Source: Sphingomonadales bacterium (GTDB lineage Bacteria > Pseudomonadota > Alphaproteobacteria > Sphingomonadales > Sphingomonadaceae). Taken from it: a stretch of DNA of 58,534 nt. How positions within the stretch are numbered: position 1 is the stretch's first letter; each line of letters begins with the position of its first letter. Below are positions 6,125-14,868 of this stretch, piece after piece. A program made the translations under genes and the position numbers. The stretch spans positions 1 to 58,534 of the forward strand of contig JBBRFG010000001.1 in assembly GCA_038224685.1 (NCBI GenBank), written 5' to 3'. Below the pieces are notes generated by a model that was not told the origin of the DNA, searched no databases, and saw nothing but the letters and a program-made list of their open reading frames with translations.

Positions 6125-6475
6125 TCATAGCTTCACGCCAAACTGCGCCAGCGTCCACACCATCGCCAGATAGAGCGCCACAGTCAATCCGCAGCCAACA
6201 ACTAGCGCAGGCCAGAAGCCGATGCCGCGGTTCAGCAGTAGCGGGATCACCAGGAACATCGGCAAGCTCGGCAGCACGAACCAGAAGGTCGCGGTGGCGT
6301 GATCAGCCATCCGGGCCACATCCTGCGTATCACTCCACAGCCAGATCATTCCCAGCACCGAAATCAGCGGTAGCGACGCGATTAGTGCACCAAGGCCCGG
6401 GGTGCGGCGGGCCACTTCGCTGACGATCGCAATGATCAGGCCGGATAAGGCAGCTTTCAGCAGCAGGTAGGCCAT
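6125..6475 (-). CDS. Small membrane protein, DUF3147-like
   Basis: 116 aa, about 4 TM, 'GALIASLPLISVLGMIWLW' and 'FWFVLPSLPMF'; lies 18 bp downstream of the RND gene. Confidence 0.75.
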   Translation of the reverse strand: MAYLLLKAALSGLIIAIVSEVARRTPGLGALIASLPLISVLGMIWLWSDTQDVARMADHATATFWFVLPSLPMFLVIPLLLNRGIGFWPALVVGCGLTVALYLAMVWTLAQFGVKL

Positions 6476-6493: not shown

Positions 6494-9400
6494 TTACTCG
6501 GCAAGCGTCTCGCGCCGCCGCCACGCAGGCCACGTTACGCCCCAGCCATCGCGCGTCACCTTAAGATAGATTGCGGGCAGCACCAGCATGTTGAGCACGG
6601 TCGAACTGGTCAAGCCGCACAGGATCACGATGGCCATCGGGGCCTGAATTTCACTCCCGGGCTCGCCCAGCGCAATCGCCAGCGGCAGCAGCGCTAGCCC
6701 TGCGGAAATCGCGGTCATCAGGATTGGCACCAGCCGCTCTTCCGACCCGCGCCGCACCGCCTCGGCCAAATCGGCAATGCCTTCGACCGCCTGCAAATGC
6801 TTGATATGCGTCACCATCATCACCCCGTTGCGCGTAGCAATACCGAACAGCGTGATGAAACCGACAATGGTCGCCACCGACAGCACCCCGCCGGTCAGCC
6901 ACAGGCCCACCACCCCGCCGACCAGCGCCAGCGGCAGGTTGATCATCACAAGCAACGCATCGCGGCCCGACCGGAACGCCTGTTGCAGCAGCAGGAACAT
7001 GCCGAGCAGCACGACCAGCCCCAGCGCCAACAGCGTGCGGCCTGCGCTGGCCGCGCTTTCGAACTGCCCGGCAAGCTCGATATGTGCACCCGGAGGCAGC
7101 GCGATGTCTTCCAGCACAGTGTCGATATCGGCGACCACCGCGCCGAGATCGCGGCCCGAGACATTGGCCATCACCAGCTGCATCCGCTCCACGCTTTCAC
7201 GGGTGATTGCATTCGGTCCGGTATCGCGCACCACATCGGCAATCGCGGACAGCGGGATCAGCTGCCCACCAGGCGCTGCGATCAGCATGGTGTCAAGCTG
7301 CCCTGCATCGGCATATTGCACCGGATCATAACGCACCACGACATCGGTGATCACTGGACGCTCAATCAGCTGACCGACTTTGGCCCCGGCAATCGCGGCC
7401 TCGATTGCGCCGGTCACAGCCTCGACCGCGAGGCCGTAGTTCGCCAGATCGGCCCGCCGCAACCGCACGCGCAGATAGGGCACCAGACTTTGCGTATCGC
7501 GCTGCACATCCACCGTGCCGGGAATTGCGCTAACTGCGGTCTCGACCTGTGTGGAAATCCGCTGGAGCGTGTCGGTGTCGGGTGCGAAAACCTTGATCGC
7601 GATGTTCGCGCGCGCGCCGGAAAGGATATGATCGACCCGGTGGCCGATGGGCTGACCGAAGATCGCCTGCACCCCCGGCACGGTGCCGACGGCATCCCGC
7701 AGTGCTGAAAGGAGTTCGCCACGGTCACGGCCATCATCGTTGAGGCTGGCTTCGATTTCAGAGGCGAACACTTCCTGCGCGTGCGGATCGCCCGGCGCGC
7801 GGCCGGTTCGGCGAGCGGTGGTGCGGACCTCGGGCTGCGACAGCAGAGCCGCTTCAACCTCGCTCGCCGCGCGGTCGCTGTCAGCAAGGCTGGTGCCGGG
7901 AAGGGTCGTGACGTTGACCGTCAGTGAGCCTTCGTTGAACTCGGGCAGGAAGGCGCGGCCCGCCAGCACGATCCCGATGCCTGCCAGCACCACCATGATC
8001 AGCGACCCCACCGCTAGCAAGCGCCAACGGTCCAGCCATCGGTCGAGCAGTGCGACATACCAGCGCTTCATGCGAATCACCCAGCCGGGCTCGCGTCCGA
8101 CATCATCGGGGCGGCGGCTGAGCAAGTCGTAACTGAGCGCCGGGGTCAGCGTCAGCGCCACTGCAAGGCTTGCGAGCAGCGACACGCCGTAAGCCAGCGC
8201 CAGTGGTTGCAACAGCCGCCCTTCGATACCCGAAAGCCCAAATATCGGCAGGAACACCAGCAGGATGATCAGCGTCGCAAAGATGATTGCGCCCTGCACC
8301 TCGCCGGTTGCCGCTGCAACCACGGCGATATCGCTTTGCTGCTCCTCGGGCGTCTTGGCACGTTCCAGACGCAAGCGGCGCACCACATTCTCGACCACGA
8401 TGATCGCATCATCGACCAGCATACCGAGCGCAATTGCGAGTCCCCCCAACGTCATGGTGTTGATCGTGCCGCCGCCCGCGTTGATGACGATGATCGCGCT
8501 CACCACCGACACCGGGATCGCCGCCAGCGCGACGGCGGTCGCGCGCCAGCTAACGAGGAAGATGAACACGATCACTGCAACCAGCACCAGCCCTTCGATC
8601 AGCGCAGTGGTGACGTTATCGACCGAGCGCTGGATGAAATCGGCCTGCCGGAACACCCGCGTTTCCAGCACCATGCCTTCGGGCAGGCTGCGCTGAAGTT
8701 CGCTGAACACAGTGTCGAGGCGGTCGGTCAGTTCTAGCGTATTTGCCCCCGGCTGCTTTTGGATGGCGAGGATCACCGCAGGCTTGCCGTTGAAAGCGCC
8801 GGTGCCGCGTTTCAGCCCTTCGCCGATGCGGATATCGCCGATCTCGCGCGCCAGCACCGGCACACCGCCCGCATCGCCCACCACGACATTGCCGAAATCA
8901 TCGGCCGTGGCCGCGCGGCCAACCCCTTCGACCAGCAATTCCTGCCCGTTGGCGACCACAACCCCGGCGCTGCGATTATTGCTGGCGGCGGACATGGCTT
9001 CGATCACCTGATTTGTGCCGATGCCCCGCGCAGACATGCGCGCAGGATCGACCAGCAATTGCACTTGCCGTTCGTCCCCGCCGATGGTTAGCACTTCGGC
9101 GATGCCCGGAACTGACATGACACGGCGACGGACAATCCAGTCTGCGGTGGACTTAAGATCCATCGGGCTGGCGCTGTCTGACCGCAAGGCGACGAACATG
9201 ATCTCGCCCATGACCGAACTGGCCGGGGTCATGTGCGGAGGCGGCAAGTCCGCGGGCAATTCGTCGCCTGCCGTCTGCAGCCGTTCGGCTACGATCCGAC
9301 GCGCGCTTTCGGGCGGGGTCGCCCAGTCAAACTCAAGCGTGACCACCGATAGGCCTGTGGCGCTGTTCGAGCGGATGCGCCGCAGCCCGGGCGCTCCATT

Positions 9401-9619
9401 GAGCGCGGTTTCCAGCGGTATGGTAACGCGCTGCTCCACCTCGGTCGGGGTGTAGCCCCCAGCATCCACCACGACGGTGACGGTCGGCGCGGTGAGATCG
9501 GGTAGCACGTCAACCGGCGTGCGCAGCGCTGTCCACGCGCCGAACGCGGTCAGCAGCGCAGCAATGGCGTAGACCATCGCCCGGTTTTCGAAGCTCCATC
9601 GGACGAGGCGTTCAAGCAC
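6494..9619 (-). CDS. Heavy-metal efflux RND permease (CusA/CzcA family)
   Basis: 1041 aa; 'PVDVLPDL', 'EVEQRVTIPLE', TM4 'ALGMLVDDAIIVVEN', 'ERLVPILMTA'. Confidence 0.95.
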   Translation of the reverse strand: MLERLVRWSFENRAMVYAIAALLTAFGAWTALRTPVDVLPDLTAPTVTVVVDAGGYTPTEVEQRVTIPLETALNGAPGLRRIRSNSATGLSVVTLEFDWATPPESARRIVAERLQTAGDELPADLPPPHMTPASSVMGEIMFVALRSDSASPMDLKSTADWIVRRRVMSVPGIAEVLTIGGDERQVQLLVDPARMSARGIGTNQVIEAMSAASNNRSAGVVVANGQELLVEGVGRAATADDFGNVVVGDAGGVPVLAREIGDIRIGEGLKRGTGAFNGKPAVILAIQKQPGANTLELTDRLDTVFSELQRSLPEGMVLETRVFRQADFIQRSVDNVTTALIEGLVLVAVIVFIFLVSWRATAVALAAIPVSVVSAIIVINAGGGTINTMTLGGLAIALGMLVDDAIIVVENVVRRLRLERAKTPEEQQSDIAVVAAATGEVQGAIIFATLIILLVFLPIFGLSGIEGRLLQPLALAYGVSLLASLAVALTLTPALSYDLLSRRPDDVGREPGWVIRMKRWYVALLDRWLDRWRLLAVGSLIMVVLAGIGIVLAGRAFLPEFNEGSLTVNVTTLPGTSLADSDRAASEVEAALLSQPEVRTTARRTGRAPGDPHAQEVFASEIEASLNDDGRDRGELLSALRDAVGTVPGVQAIFGQPIGHRVDHILSGARANIAIKVFAPDTDTLQRISTQVETAVSAIPGTVDVQRDTQSLVPYLRVRLRRADLANYGLAVEAVTGAIEAAIAGAKVGQLIERPVITDVVVRYDPVQYADAGQLDTMLIAAPGGQLIPLSAIADVVRDTGPNAITRESVERMQLVMANVSGRDLGAVVADIDTVLEDIALPPGAHIELAGQFESAASAGRTLLALGLVVLLGMFLLLQQAFRSGRDALLVMINLPLALVGGVVGLWLTGGVLSVATIVGFITLFGIATRNGVMMVTHIKHLQAVEGIADLAEAVRRGSEERLVPILMTAISAGLALLPLAIALGEPGSEIQAPMAIVILCGLTSSTVLNMLVLPAIYLKVTRDGWGVTWPAWRRRETLAE

Positions 9620-9630
9620 AGATCAGCCCC

Positions 9631-11154
9631 TTAATGCGCATGGCCGTGGCCGAAGGCATCGGGCGTCGCCGCCGCTGCCCTGACCGCCGCCGCGCCGCGC
9701 GTGACCACCCGTTCGCCTGCCTTGAGCTGGCCTTCGACGGCCACTTGCGTGCCGCTGCGCGCCAGCACGGTGACGGCGCGGCGCTGGAAAGTCTCGCCGC
9801 CCAATTGGACGTAGATTACATCCTGCCCGCTTTCATTGAGCAGGGCACTGGCAGGAATGGTCAGCCGCTGCGTGGCATTTCCGGTGCGCAATTGCCCCTG
9901 CACACGCTGGCCAGGGCGCAGCGCGCGGCTGTTCCAGGCGAAGATGACTGAAAGGCTTCGGGTCTGCGGATCAATCGCTGCGCCGCGCTGCACCAGCTGA
10001 CCCGTGCCATTGCCCAGCGTGATGACCTGATCGGGCAATTGCAGGTCGATTCCGCTGGGCGTGCCGACCTTCGCAGCCATCGCTTCTGGCACGCGGGCGA
10101 CCAGCCACAGCGCCGCCGGATCGCCGATCCGCAGCAGCCGCTGTCCGCCGGTCACCCCTGCGCCTTGCACAAAGGTGCTATCGAGCACCTCCCCTGAGAT
10201 TGGCGCGACGACGGGAACACCTGCCCCGCCGCCTGCTACAGCCGAGCGGCGCTGCTTGGCTGTTCGCAGCTGCGCCTCGGCCAACCGCAATGCGGTGCGC
10301 GCCTCATCAAGCCTCCGTGCAGGAACGGCTTCAGCCTCGACCAGCTGCGCCATGCGCGCCACTTCACGCGCCGCCGCATCACTGGCAATCTGCGCTTGGC
10401 TGATTGCGAGACCAAGCGTGGCGACATCCTCGCCCCCGCCAAGGGTCGATGAAATGCTGCCAAGCACCTGCCCGCGCCGGACCCGGTCGCCCGCAGCAGG
10501 CATTCGTGCTGCACGAAGAATACCGTCAATGGGAGCCGAAACAATCGCCTCGGCTTGAGGCTGTAACTGCACATCGACGGTGACCGGCACGGTCTCGGCG
10601 AAATTGGTAAGCTGTGCCGCCGTGGTCATGAACGGGATGCGCCACTGCACTTCCTTGGAGAACGCGACCGCGCCTTCCTCCTTGGCTTCGACAGGAGCGG
10701 CCTTGGCGCCTTCTGCGCTGGTCGCCCACACGGTCACCTCGCCCAGATCGTAAACCGATTGGCCGTTGGGATTATCGAGCACCAGCCGCAGCCGCGCCTT
10801 GCCGTTCTTGGACGCCTTTAGCAGCGGCCTGAAGATGCCTTGGGTGTCGCTCGGCCCAGCCTTGGCGGTGTCCCGCTTGCGATCGGGCCACACCAGTTCT
10901 GCGGTGAGCGTGCCATCAGTCACGGGCTTGTAGCTATCCAGCCAGGTGAGGTGCGCATCGAACCGCCGGTTCTTGCCCTGCACCAAAGGGCGGTATTCGA
11001 CAAAAAGTTCGGTCGCTGGCGAAAATTGCGTGACCACGATCCCGCCGTCGCCATCAGACGCAGCCGGCTCTTCCGGGGACAGCAATCCGCACCCTGCCAG
11101 AGACAGGGCCAAAACAGGCGCGGCAAGCGCCGCAAACAGGCGGGATCGGGTCAT
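9631..11154 (-). CDS. RND efflux periplasmic adaptor (membrane fusion lipoprotein)
   Basis: Start moved to the ATG at 11154 (MTRSRLF...), lipobox LAGC. Lipoyl-like 'VSAPIDG' and 'VVAPISGEV', alpha hairpin, C-terminal 'GHGHAH'. Confidence 0.9.
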   Translation of the reverse strand: MTRSRLFAALAAPVLALSLAGCGLLSPEEPAASDGDGGIVVTQFSPATELFVEYRPLVQGKNRRFDAHLTWLDSYKPVTDGTLTAELVWPDRKRDTAKAGPSDTQGIFRPLLKASKNGKARLRLVLDNPNGQSVYDLGEVTVWATSAEGAKAAPVEAKEEGAVAFSKEVQWRIPFMTTAAQLTNFAETVPVTVDVQLQPQAEAIVSAPIDGILRAARMPAAGDRVRRGQVLGSISSTLGGGEDVATLGLAISQAQIASDAAAREVARMAQLVEAEAVPARRLDEARTALRLAEAQLRTAKQRRSAVAGGGAGVPVVAPISGEVLDSTFVQGAGVTGGQRLLRIGDPAALWLVARVPEAMAAKVGTPSGIDLQLPDQVITLGNGTGQLVQRGAAIDPQTRSLSVIFAWNSRALRPGQRVQGQLRTGNATQRLTIPASALLNESGQDVIYVQLGGETFQRRAVTVLARSGTQVAVEGQLKAGERVVTRGAAAVRAAAATPDAFGHGHAH

Positions 11155-11179: not shown

Positions 11180-11374
11180 TCAATGGTCGTGCGGTGCTGC
11201 TTCGTCGTGCGGCACACCATCGTGTTCGTGATCTTCAGCCACGGGGTCGGGTGCGTCGTTGTCACCGTCAGCTGCGTCGGCGGCTACTGGGGCCTCGGCG
11301 GTGTCGGCAGAATCGCCGCAAGCGGTCAGCACCAACAGTGCCGGGATCGCGGCACACACAATAATCTTCTTCAT
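11180..11374 (-). CDS. Small His/Asp-rich lipoprotein
   Basis: 64 aa, signal MKKIIV... with lipobox LTAC, acidic tail with 5 His; start overlaps the tolC stop (ATGA). Confidence 0.8.
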   Translation of the reverse strand: MKKIIVCAAIPALLVLTACGDSADTAEAPVAADAADGDNDAPDPVAEDHEHDGVPHDEAAPHDH

Positions 11375-12573
11375 CGGTAGCTCCTTCCAGTGGTGAGGTC
11401 GTAGTTGACCGCGGCCAGCGCGGCATCAAGCGCAAAGGCGATCACTGAAAGATCGGCGTCGCGCGCGGCTTCGTAGGCATCTAGCAATTCGACAACCCCG
11501 ATTTCTCCGGATTGGTAGGCAGTATTGGCAATAATGCCGAGCCGCCCGGCATCGTCCCGTGCGCTGATTGCAGCAACGGCAGCGGCGCGTAACGAGGACA
11601 GACGGGCGCTGGCAGCCAATTGTTCGGCAGCTATCCGGCGGCGAGCAATGGCAAGTTCCGCCTCAAGTGACGTGCGCCGCGCATCCTCGCGCCGCACCGC
11701 CGCGCCCCCGCCGTTCCACAGCGGCAGCGAAAGCCCAAGCGAGATGATGGGGCCATATTGCGTACCTGTACCATCATCGATCCCGCGCACCCCAGTGCCG
11801 ACCGAAAGCTGCGGCCAGCGCGCACGTTCAGCCGCTGTGAGGCGATATTCGGCCGCGGTGATGCGCTGTTCCTGCGCGGTCAGATCGGCGCGCTCGCCAA
11901 GCGCTGTTTCTGCTTGGCTAAGCGCCGTGAGAGCCTCCAGAGCAACCGTCGGATCAACCACCCCGGTGAGCCCGCCCAGCGTCACACAGTCAGCCCGGCG
12001 CGCGCCTTGAGCCTGCAAGCGTCCGGCGTCCGCCGCGCTGGCCTGCACGCGGACGCGGCGCACATCATAAACGGCGGTATCGCCCGCTTCCGCCCGCGCA
12101 GAGGCAATCCGCAGCGCTTCGTGCACATCTGCGATGTAGGCCTGCCAGATATCGGCCTGCGCTGAGGCCGCGGCACAGCGGACATAGGCGCTCCGCACAT
12201 CGGCGATCAGCAACTGGCGGCGACGTTCGATATCGGCAGCAGTCGCTTCGGCATCCGCTCGCGCAGCATCGCGCAAGGCAGCTCGGCGACCGACCAGATC
12301 GATCGGCTGCACCAGATGGAGCTGATATTCAATCTCGCCCCCGCCTTCACGCGCCAGTTCAAGCTGAGGATCGTCGAGCGGGCCGATCACATCGACCTCT
12401 GCCCCAGCAGCAGCGCGGTCGGCATCGTCGCGCGCGGCGATACCCTCCTGCGCCAGCGCCAGCGCGATCGCATCACTCTCGGCCAAGGACTCCTGCGCCG
12501 CAACCGGCAGAGCGATCACACCCAGCATGGCAGGGATGAGACGGGATACGCAGCGCATCCACTGAATTGACAT
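11371..12573 (-). CDS. TolC/CzcC-family outer membrane factor
   Basis: ATG at 12573 preceded by GGAGA; signal peptide; OEP repeat 'AYQSGEIGVVELLDA'. Confidence 0.9.
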   Translation of the reverse strand: MSIQWMRCVSRLIPAMLGVIALPVAAQESLAESDAIALALAQEGIAARDDADRAAAGAEVDVIGPLDDPQLELAREGGGEIEYQLHLVQPIDLVGRRAALRDAARADAEATAADIERRRQLLIADVRSAYVRCAAASAQADIWQAYIADVHEALRIASARAEAGDTAVYDVRRVRVQASAADAGRLQAQGARRADCVTLGGLTGVVDPTVALEALTALSQAETALGERADLTAQEQRITAAEYRLTAAERARWPQLSVGTGVRGIDDGTGTQYGPIISLGLSLPLWNGGGAAVRREDARRTSLEAELAIARRRIAAEQLAASARLSSLRAAAVAAISARDDAGRLGIIANTAYQSGEIGVVELLDAYEAARDADLSVIAFALDAALAAVNYDLTTGRSYR

Positions 12574-12640
12574 AATATTCTCCGCATAAGTCAGACGACC
12601 GGGCAATCGCCCGGCAAGCACGTCAGAGTGTTCGCGGAGG
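12574..12640 (-). promoter_or_regulatory. Predicted mRNA hairpin sequestering the tolC Shine-Dalgarno
   Basis: On the mRNA: CUCCGC...UCUGACG...CCGGGC-GAUU-GCCCGG...CGUCUGA...GCGGAG, three nested complementary segments. Confidence 0.6.
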
Positions 12641-12979
12641 TCGTAAAAGGTTGTTCGGCGGGCTTTCTGGCGCACGATCAGCGAGCGGCGTAGCACTCCG
12701 CCGTTCGGCCAGCATCAGCCGCTCTTTCAGCACAGGCGCGGATCCGGGCTCAGCTCCGACCGAAAGTACATCGGCAGGCAGGTGGTTGTGGGCAAACCCG
12801 GATCCGTGATCGCTCTCGTCGTCGGGGCTGGCATCCGTGTGGACGTGATCGTTATGATGAACATGGTCTTCGGACGACGCCAGCGACTGCCCGTGCTGCC
12901 CCAGATGCTCCGCCCATGCCGCACGCGGCACAAGCAGCGCGGATAGGAGTAGCGCAAGGGTCACGAAACGTAGCATCAT
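12623..12979 (-). CDS. Secreted His-rich leader protein (CzcI/DUF2946-like) ending in RPPR
   Basis: Start moved to 12979 (MMLRFVTLALLLSALLVPRAAWA signal peptide). 118 aa, 10 His, C-terminus LLRPPRTL; first gene of the efflux operon. Confidence 0.75.
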   Translation of the reverse strand: MMLRFVTLALLLSALLVPRAAWAEHLGQHGQSLASSEDHVHHNDHVHTDASPDDESDHGSGFAHNHLPADVLSVGAEPGSAPVLKERLMLAERRSATPLADRAPESPPNNLLRPPRTL

Positions 12980-13143
12980 CCAGTCATAGCCGCACGGTCC
13001 CATGCGATCAATTGACGATTGCGGCAATAAACGGCCTGTCATGGGTTCGATCACATCGGCAGCTTTGGGGTCGCTTTCTGAATGTGGAGTTTCAGGAAAC
13101 GAACTGAAGATAGCCGCCATTCCCGGCCCGAGCAGGTTAGTAT

Positions 13144-13188
13144 CGGTTTCTGGTCAACCCGGTCATTCCACATGCCAATTGGGAACGA
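13144..13188. repeat. 45-bp segment, inverted copy of 906-950
   Basis: 38/45 identity to the reverse complement of 906-950. Confidence 0.8.
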
Positions 13189-13191
13189 TCA

Positions 13192-13367
13192 CTAGGGTCA
13201 GGACCTATTAACCGCACCATTCCGCCGTCCCGAAGGGATTTGGCCAAAAGGGCCCATCGCCGCGTCAGTTCGGTTTGAAATATTGACATATTCCTGCACC
13301 TCACTTCCTCGCGCTGGGCCCTTTTAACTCAAACCTCAATGGTGCGGGTAATAGGTCCTGACCCTAG
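13192..13367. mobile_element. MITE-like non-autonomous element, 176 bp
   Basis: 30-bp terminal inverted repeats CTAGGGTCAGGACCTATTAACCGCACCATT / AATGGTGCGGGTAATAGGTCCTGACCCTAG (1 mismatch), CTAG at both ends, internal IR AAAAGGGCCCA/TGGGCCCTTTT, no ORF. Confidence 0.85.
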
Positions 13368-13403
13368 CATGAGCGGGACGTGGAGGGGCGAACCACCGCC
13401 CGC

Positions 13404-13430
13404 TTAAACTTACCCCCAAACGCCCGTTAT
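13404..13430 (+). promoter_or_regulatory. Putative sigma-28 (FliA)-type promoter of fliD
   Basis: TTAAA...CCCGTTAT resembles TAAA-N15-GCCGATAA and lies immediately upstream of a late flagellar gene. Confidence 0.4.
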
Positions 13431-13437
13431 CAGGGGC

Positions 13438-14868
13438 ATGGACAATCCCGGCTCTTCAATTCTGACATCGCTTGGCGCGGGCAGCGGGATTGATTTCAAT
13501 ACGCTGGCCACCGACATTTCGGCTGCCAGCTTTTCGTTCCAGCGGCAGACGTTGGAGACGCGCAGGCAATCGCTGGAAACCCGGATTTCGGCGGTTGCGC
13601 AGCTGCGCAGTTCCGTCACCAGCCTCGCCAGCGCGCTCGGCACCCGGTTTCGCAGCGGCGATCTGGCCCCGCGCGGCGAAATCGGCAATCCGGCGGTGGC
13701 GCGCGCCACCGTGCCGGTCGGCCTCAGCCCGCGCGGCAGCTATTCGCTCGAAGTCACGCAGCTGGCGCAAAGCCAAACGCTGGTGTCCAAATCCTATACC
13801 AGCCGCACCGACCTGGTCGGCGAAGGCACGCTGGGCATCCGGTTTGGAACAGTGGCCGGATCAGGCTTTGCCCAAGACGCCGCCAGCAGCGCGCTGGCGA
13901 TCACGGTGACAGCCGAAGACACGCTGGCCACTCTGGCCGCCAAAATCACCAATAGCAGCGGCGGCGCGATCAATGCCTATGTCACCGCTGGCACCGGCGG
14001 CGCGCGGCTGGTGCTCAAAGGCGCAGAGGGCGCCAACAGCGGATTTGTGCTTGAACCCGTCAGCGGATCGGCCGCGCCCACCGGCGCAGCGGGCGATCTT
14101 GGCTATCTCGGCTGGAACCCCGCAAGCGATACCGGCGAACTGCGCACGACCGCAGTCGATGCCGCCTTTCTGCTGGATACCGTGGAAATCAGCAGCCCGA
14201 CCAACCGCGTCACCGGCCTGCCGGGCGGGTTTGGCCTGCAACTGACCGCTACCAATACCGGCGCGCCGACCACGGTTTCATTCGGCAGCAATTCCGCCGG
14301 AATTTCAGCGGTGGTCAGCGATCTGGTCGCCGCGCTCAATGATATCGCATCGCAGGTCAATACTGTCGCCGCGCCGCGCGGGGGCGAGCTTGGCAATGAT
14401 CCGGGCGCGCGCGAATTGCGCCGCGATCTGGCAGGGCTGGCGGGCCGGTTAATTGATCCCGGCGCTGGCCCGGGCGAACCGCGCTCGCTCGCCGATCTGG
14501 GCGTGGTGTTGAACCGCGACGGCACGTTCCGGTTCGATGCCGCACGGCTTGATGCAGCGCTCGAAGCGAGCCCGGATGCGGTCGCCGCGCTGTTCACGCT
14601 TGGGCCAAGGGGGGTGTTTGCCACGGTCGATCAGTTCGCCCGCGAAAGCACCTTGATCGCTGACCCCGGATCGCTCGGCGGGTCGCTGCGCCGGTTTGAA
14701 AGCCAGTTGGAAAGCGGCGACGTACGGTTGGCGCGGATTACTGAGCAACAAGAAGTGCTGCGCCAGCGGCTGACCCGCAATTTCATCGCTTCGGAACGGC
14801 GCGTGGCGGCATCGCAATCGACGCTCGACTTCCTGCGCCTGCAATTCGCGCCGCGCGATAACAATTAA
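13438..14868 (+). CDS. fliD: Flagellar filament capping protein FliD
   Basis: N-terminal 'SLGAGSGID', 'YSLEVTQLAQSQ', C-terminal 'SLADLGV' and coiled-coil end. Confidence 0.9.
   Translation: MDNPGSSILTSLGAGSGIDFNTLATDISAASFSFQRQTLETRRQSLETRISAVAQLRSSVTSLASALGTRFRSGDLAPRGEIGNPAVARATVPVGLSPRGSYSLEVTQLAQSQTLVSKSYTSRTDLVGEGTLGIRFGTVAGSGFAQDAASSALAITVTAEDTLATLAAKITNSSGGAINAYVTAGTGGARLVLKGAEGANSGFVLEPVSGSAAPTGAAGDLGYLGWNPASDTGELRTTAVDAAFLLDTVEISSPTNRVTGLPGGFGLQLTATNTGAPTTVSFGSNSAGISAVVSDLVAALNDIASQVNTVAAPRGGELGNDPGARELRRDLAGLAGRLIDPGAGPGEPRSLADLGVVLNRDGTFRFDAARLDAALEASPDAVAALFTLGPRGVFATVDQFARESTLIADPGSLGGSLRRFESQLESGDVRLARITEQQEVLRQRLTRNFIASERRVAASQSTLDFLRLQFAPRDNN

What the first reader, a model, noticed from the sequence alone, without database searches (positions are those of the whole stretch)
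12573..12979. Candidate metal-sensing ribosome-arrest leader whose Pro-Pro-Arg codons pair with the tolC Shine-Dalgarno
Seen: the first ORF of the RND operon has a Sec-type signal, 10 His, no Cys, and ends LLRPPRTL*, 49 nt before tolC. On the mRNA the codons CCU CCG CGA contain CUCCGC (12639-12634), exactly complementary to GCGGAG (12585-12580), which overlaps the tolC SD. Nested inside are UC-U-GACG/CGUC-U-GA and CCGGGC-GAUU-GCCCGG, giving one long hairpin. Established: SecM (RAGP), ApdA/ApdP (RAPP) and Bordetella CruR (DUF2946, RAPP) are secretion-coupled arrest peptides controlling downstream genes, and CzcI precedes czcCBA. Inference: a ribosome stalled at RPP would cover the anti-SD and switch on the efflux pump, with arrest tuned by metal binding to the exported His-rich segment. 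This would be a His-only RPPR variant controlling an exporter. No cognate two-component or MerR regulator is seen in the window.
Basis: partly seen in the sequence, partly recalled or inferred. Interest (0 to 1): 0.85.

Follow-up and report, generated by a model that had tools for sequence, protein, structure and literature searches.

The report
Histidine-only CutF-like metal-pump leader
A small conserved gene encoding a histidine-rich peptide with a predicted export signal ends in codons that can pair with the ribosome-binding site of a heavy-metal efflux operon, and it likely switches the pump on by metal-prolonged ribosome pausing, a cysteine-free variant of the known copper sensors CutF and CruR that is still untested.

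Summary
A coding leader (dN/dS 0.16-0.39; 10 His, no Cys, ending LLRPPRTL) lies 49 nt before tolC. Its Pro-Pro-Arg codons pair with the tolC SD (P~1.0); one homologue shows a compensatory change. In 48 of 48 relatives, an HxH motif sits 45-47 residues before the terminal Pro-Pro, across a spacer only 18% conserved. CruR has the same distance (47) from its CxxC, where it is a tested ruler. The leader is probably leaderless (promoter geometry in 10 of 10 core loci). The pump is NieA/HME5-like, so nickel is a likelier signal than Zn/Cd.

The mechanism is already published: R. capsulatus CutF (stall opens an SD hairpin). The protein meets the CutF-like definition, whose commonest neighbour is a TolC-type gene, and His-only clusters are described. 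Stalling and metal sensing are inferred. This scan has reported similar His-rich leaders before, on other DNA. Verdict: new variant of a known kind, a good test case, not a new principle.

The parts
12983..13011 (-). Predicted sigma70-type promoter, TTGATC-N17-TATGAC, 6 nt before the ATG at 12976 (implies a leaderless mRNA)
   Evidence: Same geometry in 10 of 10 core-family loci and 0 of 4 distant type-C loci; 97 of 144,159 ATG/GTG codons of the genome. The pattern was drawn up after seeing the loci and was not found by the generic scan.
12623..12979 (-). Leader ORF, His-only CutF-like peptide (118 aa from 12979; 117 aa from the likelier start 12976)
   Evidence: dN/dS 0.16-0.39 in 7 of 8 pairwise comparisons, one saturated; DUF2946 hit below cut-off
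12911..12979 (-). Predicted Sec signal peptide, residues 1-23, cleavage after A-W-A
   Evidence: Hydropathy and AxA motif; A21 and W22 at least 90% conserved; inferred, no predictor run
12839..12907 (-). N-terminal His cluster (H25, H39, H41, H42, H47 conserved)
   Evidence: H25, H39, H41, H47 invariant in 35 of 35 aligned members
12782..12790 (-). H64-N-H66 motif, in the register of the CruR CxxC, 47 residues before the first Pro of PP
   Evidence: Invariant in 35 of 35; spacing 45-47 in 48 of 48; CruR C93 to P141 also 47
12632..12649 (-). LLRPPR tail, candidate pause site, read by rare codons (TTA CGA CCT CCG CGA)
   Evidence: RPP in 47 of 48, LLRPP in 36 of 48; genome usage TTA 1.3%, CGA 4.6%, CCT 9.7%
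12633..12639 (-). Anti-SD arm inside the Pro-Pro-Arg codons
   Evidence: 7 pairs, 100% paired in 6 sequences, one G-C to A-U compensatory change
12589..12629 (-). Inner stems across the stop codon and intergenic hairpin (CCGGGC-GAUU-GCCCGG at the tip)
   Evidence: 15 pairs, 94-98% paired, one double and three one-sided changes, variable loop
12580..12586 (-). tolC Shine-Dalgarno arm (GCGGAG)
11371..12573 (-). TolC-family outer membrane factor
   Evidence: Pfam OEP 87.7 bits over cut-off 22
11180..11374 (-). 64-aa acidic lipoprotein-like ORF with a His tail (…PHDEAAPHDH), overlapping the tolC stop
   Evidence: found in 4 of 4 type-A loci checked; only weak lipoprotein signal matches
9631..11154 (-). 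RND periplasmic adaptor (507 aa from MTRSRL, ends GHGHAH)
   Evidence: TIGR01730 105 bits over cut-off 94.9; start
6494..9619 (-). Heavy-metal RND permease, NieA/HME5-like
   Evidence: TIGR00914 731.6 over 701.45; motifs HAQEVF and HRVDH; groups with nie-type pumps, apart from CzcA-like ones
6125..6475 (-). Small membrane ORF ending the operon (PRK09272 family)
   Evidence: NF006749 178.6 over 119; 90% identical copy at the same place in L037

Best explanation
The ORF is a conserved histidine-only leader gene whose last codons can pair with the tolC ribosome-binding site, and it likely works as a CutF-type switch in which periplasmic metal (most likely Ni or Co) would prolong a ribosome pause at Arg-Pro-Pro and so open tolC for translation. 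Step 1 (inferred): a constitutive promoter makes a leaderless mRNA starting at 12976. Step 2 (inferred): the signal peptide takes the nascent chain into SecYEG. Step 3 (geometry shown, meaning inferred): with Pro114 at the peptidyl-transferase centre, H64-x-H66 is 47 residues away, the length CutF's authors give for tunnel plus membrane (about 30 + 17), so it sits at the periplasmic exit with the first His cluster already outside. Step 4 (inferred): without metal, translocation pull and EF-P carry the ribosome through the intrinsically weak LRPPR, it terminates, and the hairpin re-forms over the SD. Step 5 (inferred): metal bound by HxH and the N-terminal His cluster holds the chain, the ribosome dwells on the anti-SD codons, and tolC and the coupled pump genes are translated.
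For: Coding under purifying selection. RPP in 47 of 48 relatives, with 3 residues after PP in 47 of 48 as in CruR; 6 of these were matched by the profile only over their first ~95 positions and still have the tail at the same spacing. HxH-to-PP spacer 45-47 aa (SD 0.6) at 18% identity, while the neighbouring linker varies 16-36 aa (SD 3.5); in CruR a +5 insertion in this spacer strongly reduces regulation (PMC9426467). The tail keeps L-R-P-P-R through synonymous changes (TTA CGA vs CTG AGA; CCG CGA vs CCA CGG), so selection also acts on the peptide. Pairing with the SD: 97% of cells paired, 2 double changes, slid controls 34-41%. The anti-SD moves to the Leu-Leu-Arg codons or to the stop codon in other subgroups, yet an SD-side helix is kept. 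Cost of opening the tolC start falls from 10.2 to 4.2 kcal/mol with a ribosome at PP, but not with one 10 codons earlier (10.9); 8 of 13 loci fall to 6.7 or less. The downstream gene is TolC-type in all three subgroups, and the pumps tested pass TIGR00914. No transcriptional regulator on the contig. efp is present. CutF precedent.
Against: No stalling, expression or metal data exist for this family. LRPPR is classed W (weak) in the E. coli polyproline table (PMC5811046 S5), and the motif is not RAPP/RGPP. Covariation is thin: 6 close sequences, 16 of 500 shuffles reach the double-change count. 7-25 of 100 synonymous recodings reach the same SD pairing in type A/B loci. A ribosome at the last codon opens the site as well (3.8 kcal/mol), so plain coupling fits the RNA too. 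In L010/L011 a stall at PP barely opens the site (14.6, 15.5) and only the stop position does; type-C loci stay at 9-10.5. The window's SD is only partly unpaired after masking (0.27-0.55). CutF's proposed lock uses disulfides, which a Cys-free peptide cannot form. The metal is inferred from pump motifs and neighbours only.
Confidence: 0.66

Rival explanations
1. Metal-independent translational coupling: any ribosome finishing the leader melts the hairpin, and the mature peptide is a periplasmic His-rich metal-binding accessory of the CzcI/NieI kind; induction, if any, is transcriptional.
For: Opening at the last codon equals opening at PP. LRPPR is a weak motif. Closest named clusters by language-model features are CzcI and DUF2946. 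CzcI itself is said to lack the C-terminal proline motif. The analogous Caulobacter czr operon (small ORF 57 bp before czrC, no nearby regulator) is metal-induced in promoter fusions (PMC3637150).
Against: Does not explain the 45-47 residue ruler at 18% identity or the invariant PP three residues from the end. The model is largely unstructured beyond the signal helix (pTM 0.33). DNA upstream of about -45 is not conserved, leaving little room for an operator.
Confidence: 0.16
2. Metal-dependent pausing is real but occurs at the last codons or at termination (T/A-x-UGA) rather than at Pro-Pro, or acts by blocking Rho or mRNA decay as well as by freeing the SD.
For: All 13 tails end in UGA three or four codons after PP. 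In L010/L011 only the stop position opens the SD, and type-C helices start at the stop codon. CruR acts through Rho.
Against: The residues after PPR vary (T/A/L/Q/M/H/K/S) whereas PP does not. The intergenic region is short (48-80 nt) and structured, unlike CruR's 162 nt.
Confidence: 0.11
3. The leader is a secretion or envelope monitor (SecM-like): arrest is released by Sec pulling only, and the His residues are incidental or a second function.
For: Signal peptide plus C-terminal PP is the shared build of secretion monitors (search listings).
Against: Six His are invariant in 35 of 35, the downstream genes are heavy-metal pumps, and related leaders of nie-type operons carry CxxCH or His at a similar position.
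Confidence: 0.07

Closest known systems
CutF of Rhodobacter capsulatus and the 'CutF-like proteins' (PMC9973294; PMC8456105; bioRxiv 10.1101/2025.02.05.636593)
   Same: 118 aa, Sec signal, central metal motif about 45 residues before a Pro-rich end (PEPEGPPPRL vs LLRPPRTL), stem-loop hiding the downstream SD, detoxifying target. TolC-type (OEP) genes are the class's commonest neighbour; His-only clusters 14 and 17 exist.
   Different: No Cys (CutF: CxxxC plus proposed disulfides); RPP instead of PPP; the published His-only clusters are stated to precede HupE/UreJ genes, not TolC; the anti-SD lies in the PPR codons themselves (CutF's stem-loop is described as intergenic); probable leaderless mRNA.
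CruR (Bp2923) of Bordetella pertussis, Pfam DUF2946 (PMC9426467; arrest shown in PMC12992588)
   Same: PP three residues before the stop; 47 residues between the last metal ligand and the first Pro; first gene of a metal operon.
   Different: CxxC and RAPP absent; DUF2946 below cut-off; CruR controls an importer, Cu relieves its arrest, it works through Rho with a 162-nt spacer and does not need its signal peptide.
nieI-nieC-cep-nieBA operon of Cupriavidus (HME5 / proposed class 6; PMC7060636) and CzcI
   Same: Order leader-TolC-small exported protein-adaptor-RND; RND His motifs (HAQEVF/HRVDH vs HAEGVH/HRLDH); a matching Cupriavidus plasmid operon (L040) has a 117-aa leader with 10 His ending LRPPHAPA.
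   Different: RND identity only 43%; the small protein is a 64-aa lipoprotein-like ORF, not the ~185-aa cep; no regulation by NieI was described in the passages read; no CzcI family match for the window protein.
RAPP/RGPP arrest peptides ApdA, ApdP, SecM (PMC12992588)
   Same: Small exported ORF with C-terminal di-proline ahead of a target gene.
   Different: Arg is directly before PP, not two residues before; these arrests are EF-P-refractory, whereas LRPPR is rated a weak EF-P-type motif.

Membership tests
CutF-like proteins (Ozturk 2023 filters) | At most 150 aa | tested here: met
   117-118 aa (filter)
CutF-like proteins (Ozturk 2023 filters) | PP within 15 residues of the C-terminus | tested here: met
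   P114-P115 of 118; 48 of 48 relatives
CutF-like proteins (Ozturk 2023 filters) | Sec signal peptide (SignalP) | tested here: inconclusive
   n/h/c pattern and A-W-A seen; SignalP not available
CutF-like proteins (Ozturk 2023 filters) | Same-strand downstream gene within 1000 nt | tested here: met
   tolC at 49 nt; 48-80 nt in 18 of 20 loci read
CutF-like proteins (Ozturk 2023 filters) | Retrieved by their jackhmmer profiles (in list D or one of 29 clusters) | not testable with these tools
   File S1 and the logos were not available as text
CutF proper | CxxxC copper motif | tested here: not met
   0 Cys; none in the last 105 residues of 44 of 48 relatives
CutF proper | mRNA stem-loop shielding the downstream SD | tested here: met
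   Computed and comparative only
CutF proper | Metal-induced stalling needed in cis for the downstream gene | not testable with these tools
   Needs reporter or toeprint
DUF2946 / CruR | Pfam PF11162 above 23.7 bits | tested here: not met
   15.5 bits, E 0.029; weak hits in 16 of 35 members, best E 0.00035
DUF2946 / CruR | CxxC and RAPP motifs | tested here: not met
   HNH and LRPP instead
DUF2946 / CruR | Fixed spacing of metal motif to terminal PP (within 1-2 residues) | tested here: met
   45-47 in 48 of 48 vs 47 in CruR
CzcI (NF045614/NF045615, PF28244) | Family HMM above cut-off | tested here: not met
   No NCBIfam match for the window protein; only language-model similarity of two homologues to CzcI clusters
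RAPP/RGPP arrest peptides | R-A/G-P-P core | tested here: not met
   L-R-P-P
Heavy-metal efflux RND (TIGR00914) | Score above curated cut-off | tested here: met
   731.6 vs 701.45
NieA-type (HME5 / class 6) RND | HAEGVH and HRLDH His motifs | tested here: inconclusive
   HAQEVF (second His lost) and HRVDH; groups with nie-type rows in a midpoint-rooted 13-row tree with long branches

The most novel reading that the evidence does not exclude
A cysteine-free transmembrane nickel/cobalt switch that is the operon's only regulator: a leaderless mRNA from a constitutive promoter encodes a peptide whose HxH motif, set 47 residues from the ribosome's catalytic centre, turns an intrinsically weak Arg-Pro-Pro-Arg pause into a metal-held arrest, while the very codons being decoded form the anti-SD. 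The module is portable: one leader clade heads two RND subfamilies only 34% identical, with the anti-SD re-wired to different codons. It would show that the CutF principle does not need disulfides and extends beyond copper.
Probability: 0.33. Interest if true: 0.65.

Novelty: new variant of a known kind. Interest (0 to 1): 0.4.

Why it matters
Only two members of this leader class were found tested in the papers read (CutF, CruR), both copper sensors with cysteines, and the model for CutF rests on disulfides. A His-only member with a short, fully defined RNA switch and no nearby regulator directly tests whether nascent-chain sensing across the membrane works for Ni/Co/Zn and how ligand binding becomes a longer stall. 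It also offers an explanation for alphaproteobacterial heavy-metal RND operons that lack regulatory genes. The principle itself is published, so the gain is a clean test case and an unannotated family, not a new kind of system.

Tried and rejected
Rfam: no match at E up to 1 over 12400-13450. Generic promoter/terminator scan: nothing at the leader. RNA runs: none was listed, no evidence either way. Plasmid searches with tolC DNA and with homologue P0049: no match. Genome-collection scan with TolC gave 1 unrelated locus. The viral scan did not run with alignment A3. The adaptor gene had no close orthologue in 24 same-genus genomes, so relatives came from the wider family. AlphaFold model: pTM 0.33, confident only in the signal helix; no fold search was run on it. 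Profile comparison with four betaproteobacterial leaders matched only the signal and first His cluster (95% probability, 51 columns), which composition could explain. Two weak genome hits (L024, L025) were not leaders, and a 708-aa repeat protein was dropped. No second family member and no DUF2946 above cut-off in the own genome, 83.5% complete. Rejected: the longer 165-aa frame from 13120 (upstream part not conserved, promoter lies inside it); a RAPP-type reading (register); Cu/Ag CusA-type pump (no Met in the three stretches inspected; tree); an RNA-only element (amino acids kept through synonymous change).

Full report
OBSERVATION. The minus-strand ORF 12979-12623 encodes 118 aa with 10 His and no Cys, ends NNLLRPPRTL, and lies 49 nt before the tolC ATG at 12573. 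CUCCGC in the codons CCU CCG CGA pairs with GCGGAG at probability 0.99-1.0 in 4 of 4 folding windows. No Rfam family matches. The operon is leader, TolC (Pfam OEP), a 64-aa His-tailed lipoprotein-like ORF, adaptor (TIGR01730), heavy-metal RND (TIGR00914, 731.6 over 701.45) and a PRK09272 ORF. The genome's 3 MerR and 19 response-regulator matches are all on other contigs, no CsoR/RcnR match was found in this 83.5% complete assembly, and efp is present.

THE LEADER IS A REAL, CONSERVED GENE. A single-sequence search gave 9 proteins and a profile search 42. Of the 49 ids P0002-P0050, 48 were analysed and one 708-aa repeat protein was dropped. RPP is in the tail of 47 of 48, LLRPP in 36 of 48, three residues follow PP in 47 of 48, and 44 of 48 have no Cys in the last 105 residues. 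Selection by a profile that contains the motif is partly circular, but six hits matched only over profile positions 3-99 and still show the tail. dN/dS against the window is 0.16-0.39 in 7 of 8 comparisons, one saturated. Named cluster members come from Sphingopyxis and Altererythrobacter and are annotated as hypothetical. The family is patchy: 12 of 401 family genomes matched, 5 strongly (at most 11 candidates scored per genome), and the flanks differ between loci, which suggests a mobile module.

A RULER. The last HxH before the tail lies 45-47 residues from the first Pro in 48 of 48 proteins. In the 35-row alignment this spacer has SD 0.6 and 18% mean identity, while the linker just upstream ranges 16-36 (SD 3.5). 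In CruR, C93 to P141 is also 47, PP is three residues from the end, and a +5 insertion strongly reduces copper control (PMC9426467, section 9 read). The CutF paper estimates about 30 residues in the tunnel plus about 17 across the membrane (PMC9973294, passages). So H64-x-H66 replaces CxxC at the position expected at the SecY exit.

THE RNA SWITCH. Of 20 loci read (window included, several near-duplicates), 18 gave leader plus downstream ORF and 2 were false hits. The downstream gene is TolC-type in 6 of 6 tested by Pfam and in the type-A loci by BLAST. Type A (7 loci, the window's pump): anti-SD in the PPR codons; L008 has CUCCAC/GUGGAG, a compensatory change. On 6 distinct type-A sequences 97% of cells pair, 2 pairs change on both sides (16 of 500 shuffles), and slid controls give 34-41%. 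Type B (5 loci, CzcA-like DFG pumps 34% identical to the window's): anti-SD in the Leu-Leu-Arg codons. Type C (6 loci, distant HHHNC…QPPKA leaders): helix starting at the stop codon. Caveats: Pro-Pro codons pair easily with GGAG, and 7-25 of 100 synonymous recodings matched native pairing in the 10 type A/B loci. The cost of opening the tolC start falls from 10.2 to 4.2 kcal/mol with a ribosome masked at PP, not with one 10 codons earlier (10.9), and equally at the last codon (3.8). 8 of 13 loci fall to 6.7 or less at PP; L010/L011 open only at the stop and type C stays at 9-10.5.

START AND PROMOTER. 10 of 10 core loci, and 0 of 4 type C, have TTG-N3-N17-TA-N4-N6/7 directly before an in-frame ATG/GTG, against 97 of 144,159 such codons in the genome. 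The pattern was drawn up after seeing the loci. It puts the start at 12976 and implies a leaderless mRNA. Sequence upstream of about -45 is not conserved. That leaderless mRNAs are common in Alphaproteobacteria is recalled and seen only in search listings.

THE PUMP. The closest solved structures are ZneA and CusA. The RND carries HAQEVF and HRVDH, close to the HAEGVH/HRLDH motifs of NieA, a proposed nickel pump in a nieIC-cep-nieBA operon (PMC7060636, passages). It groups with such pumps, apart from types B and C, in a 13-row midpoint-rooted tree with long branches. Leaders of types A and B form one supported clade against type C, so one leader clade heads two pump subfamilies. Of 10 plasmid regions with related RNDs, 4 have a small His- or Cys-rich ORF with a terminal PP directly before the first pump gene, including LRPPH and QRPPR tails. 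A type-B locus continues into a HupE/UreJ gene. Ni/Co is therefore the best guess, not a result.

MECHANISM. Shown: coding, conservation, spacing, pairing. Inferred: export, pausing, metal binding, direction. For an exporter whose SD is closed at rest, metal must lengthen the dwell (CutF logic), not shorten it (CruR logic). The tail is not RAPP in register; it resembles CutF's PEPEGPPPRL (PMC8456105, passages). LRPPR is classed weak (PMC5811046, supplement S5). This counts against a constitutive arrest but fits a conditional, EF-P-relieved pause as described for CutF (bioRxiv 10.1101/2025.02.05.636593, discussion and part of results read). I give this 0.66; plain coupling with a CzcI-like accessory 0.16; a pause at termination or Rho involvement 0.11; a pure secretion monitor 0.07.

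COMPARISON WITH WHAT IS KNOWN. PMC9973294 (abstract, passages, sections 5 and 25) shows Cu-induced stalling of exported CutF unfolding an SD hairpin. It defines 5,334 CutF-like proteins by filters this ORF meets, lists OEP genes of RND systems as the leading neighbours, and reports His-only clusters 14 and 17 before HupE/UreJ genes. Its protein list and logos were not readable, so this family may already be in it. The protein is not a DUF2946 or CzcI member by score, although DUF2946 is the only recurrent weak hit (16 of 35) and CzcI/DUF2946 clusters are nearest by language-model features. PMC12992588 (abstract, passages, section 8) covers RAPP/RGPP only. Searches found no paper testing a His-only leader of an RND pump; the library lacks most subscription journals. 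Caulobacter czr has a comparable small ORF and no nearby regulator (PMC3637150, passages). Earlier notes of this scan describe similar His-rich leaders in other genomes; I saw them after forming my reading and did not check them.

VERDICT. Real and conserved; works most likely like CutF; a His-only RPPR variant with the anti-SD inside the pause codons and a probable leaderless mRNA. New variant of a known kind, interest 0.4.

Noticed in passing
window 13192-13367: 176-bp MITE-like element with 30-bp terminal inverted repeats (97% complementary) between the leader promoter and the divergent flagellar cap-like gene; 97% identical copies on contigs C19 and C96 and a partial one on C20.
   Followed up: partly
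window 11180-11374 (-): Unannotated 64-aa acidic lipoprotein-like ORF ending PHDEAAPHDH, overlapping the tolC stop; conserved in 4 of 4 type-A loci checked, possibly a periplasmic metal chaperone for the pump.
   Followed up: partly
window 13010-13020 (-); L002, L004, L005, L006, L017: A CAAT-N3-CAATTG motif overlapping the -35 box is shared by several loci whose further upstream DNA is unrelated; could be an activator site or promoter element.
   Followed up: no
window 12643-12641; 9 other loci: The Arg before Pro-Pro uses a rare codon in 10 of 10 core loci (AGA in 9, CGA in the window; genome usage 1.2% and 4.6%), also where it is not part of the anti-SD.
   Followed up: no
L040 2647-3000, L041 943-1296, L043 905-1276, L045 2191-2658: Leaders of related plasmid RND operons end in LRPPH, QRPPR, IRPPH and KPPR with His or Cys at a similar distance; they are annotated hypothetical and are probably further CutF-like switches.
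   Followed up: partly
L032 8876-10912, L037 614-1390: An MFS transporter and a Fe/Mn superoxide-dismutase-like gene with a twin-arginine-type N-terminus follow some of these operons.
   Followed up: no
L006 145-1170; L005 about 820-930: An integrase-like ORF (L006) and a tRNA-like sequence (L005) lie just upstream of the leader, judged by eye, consistent with a mobile cassette.
   Followed up: no
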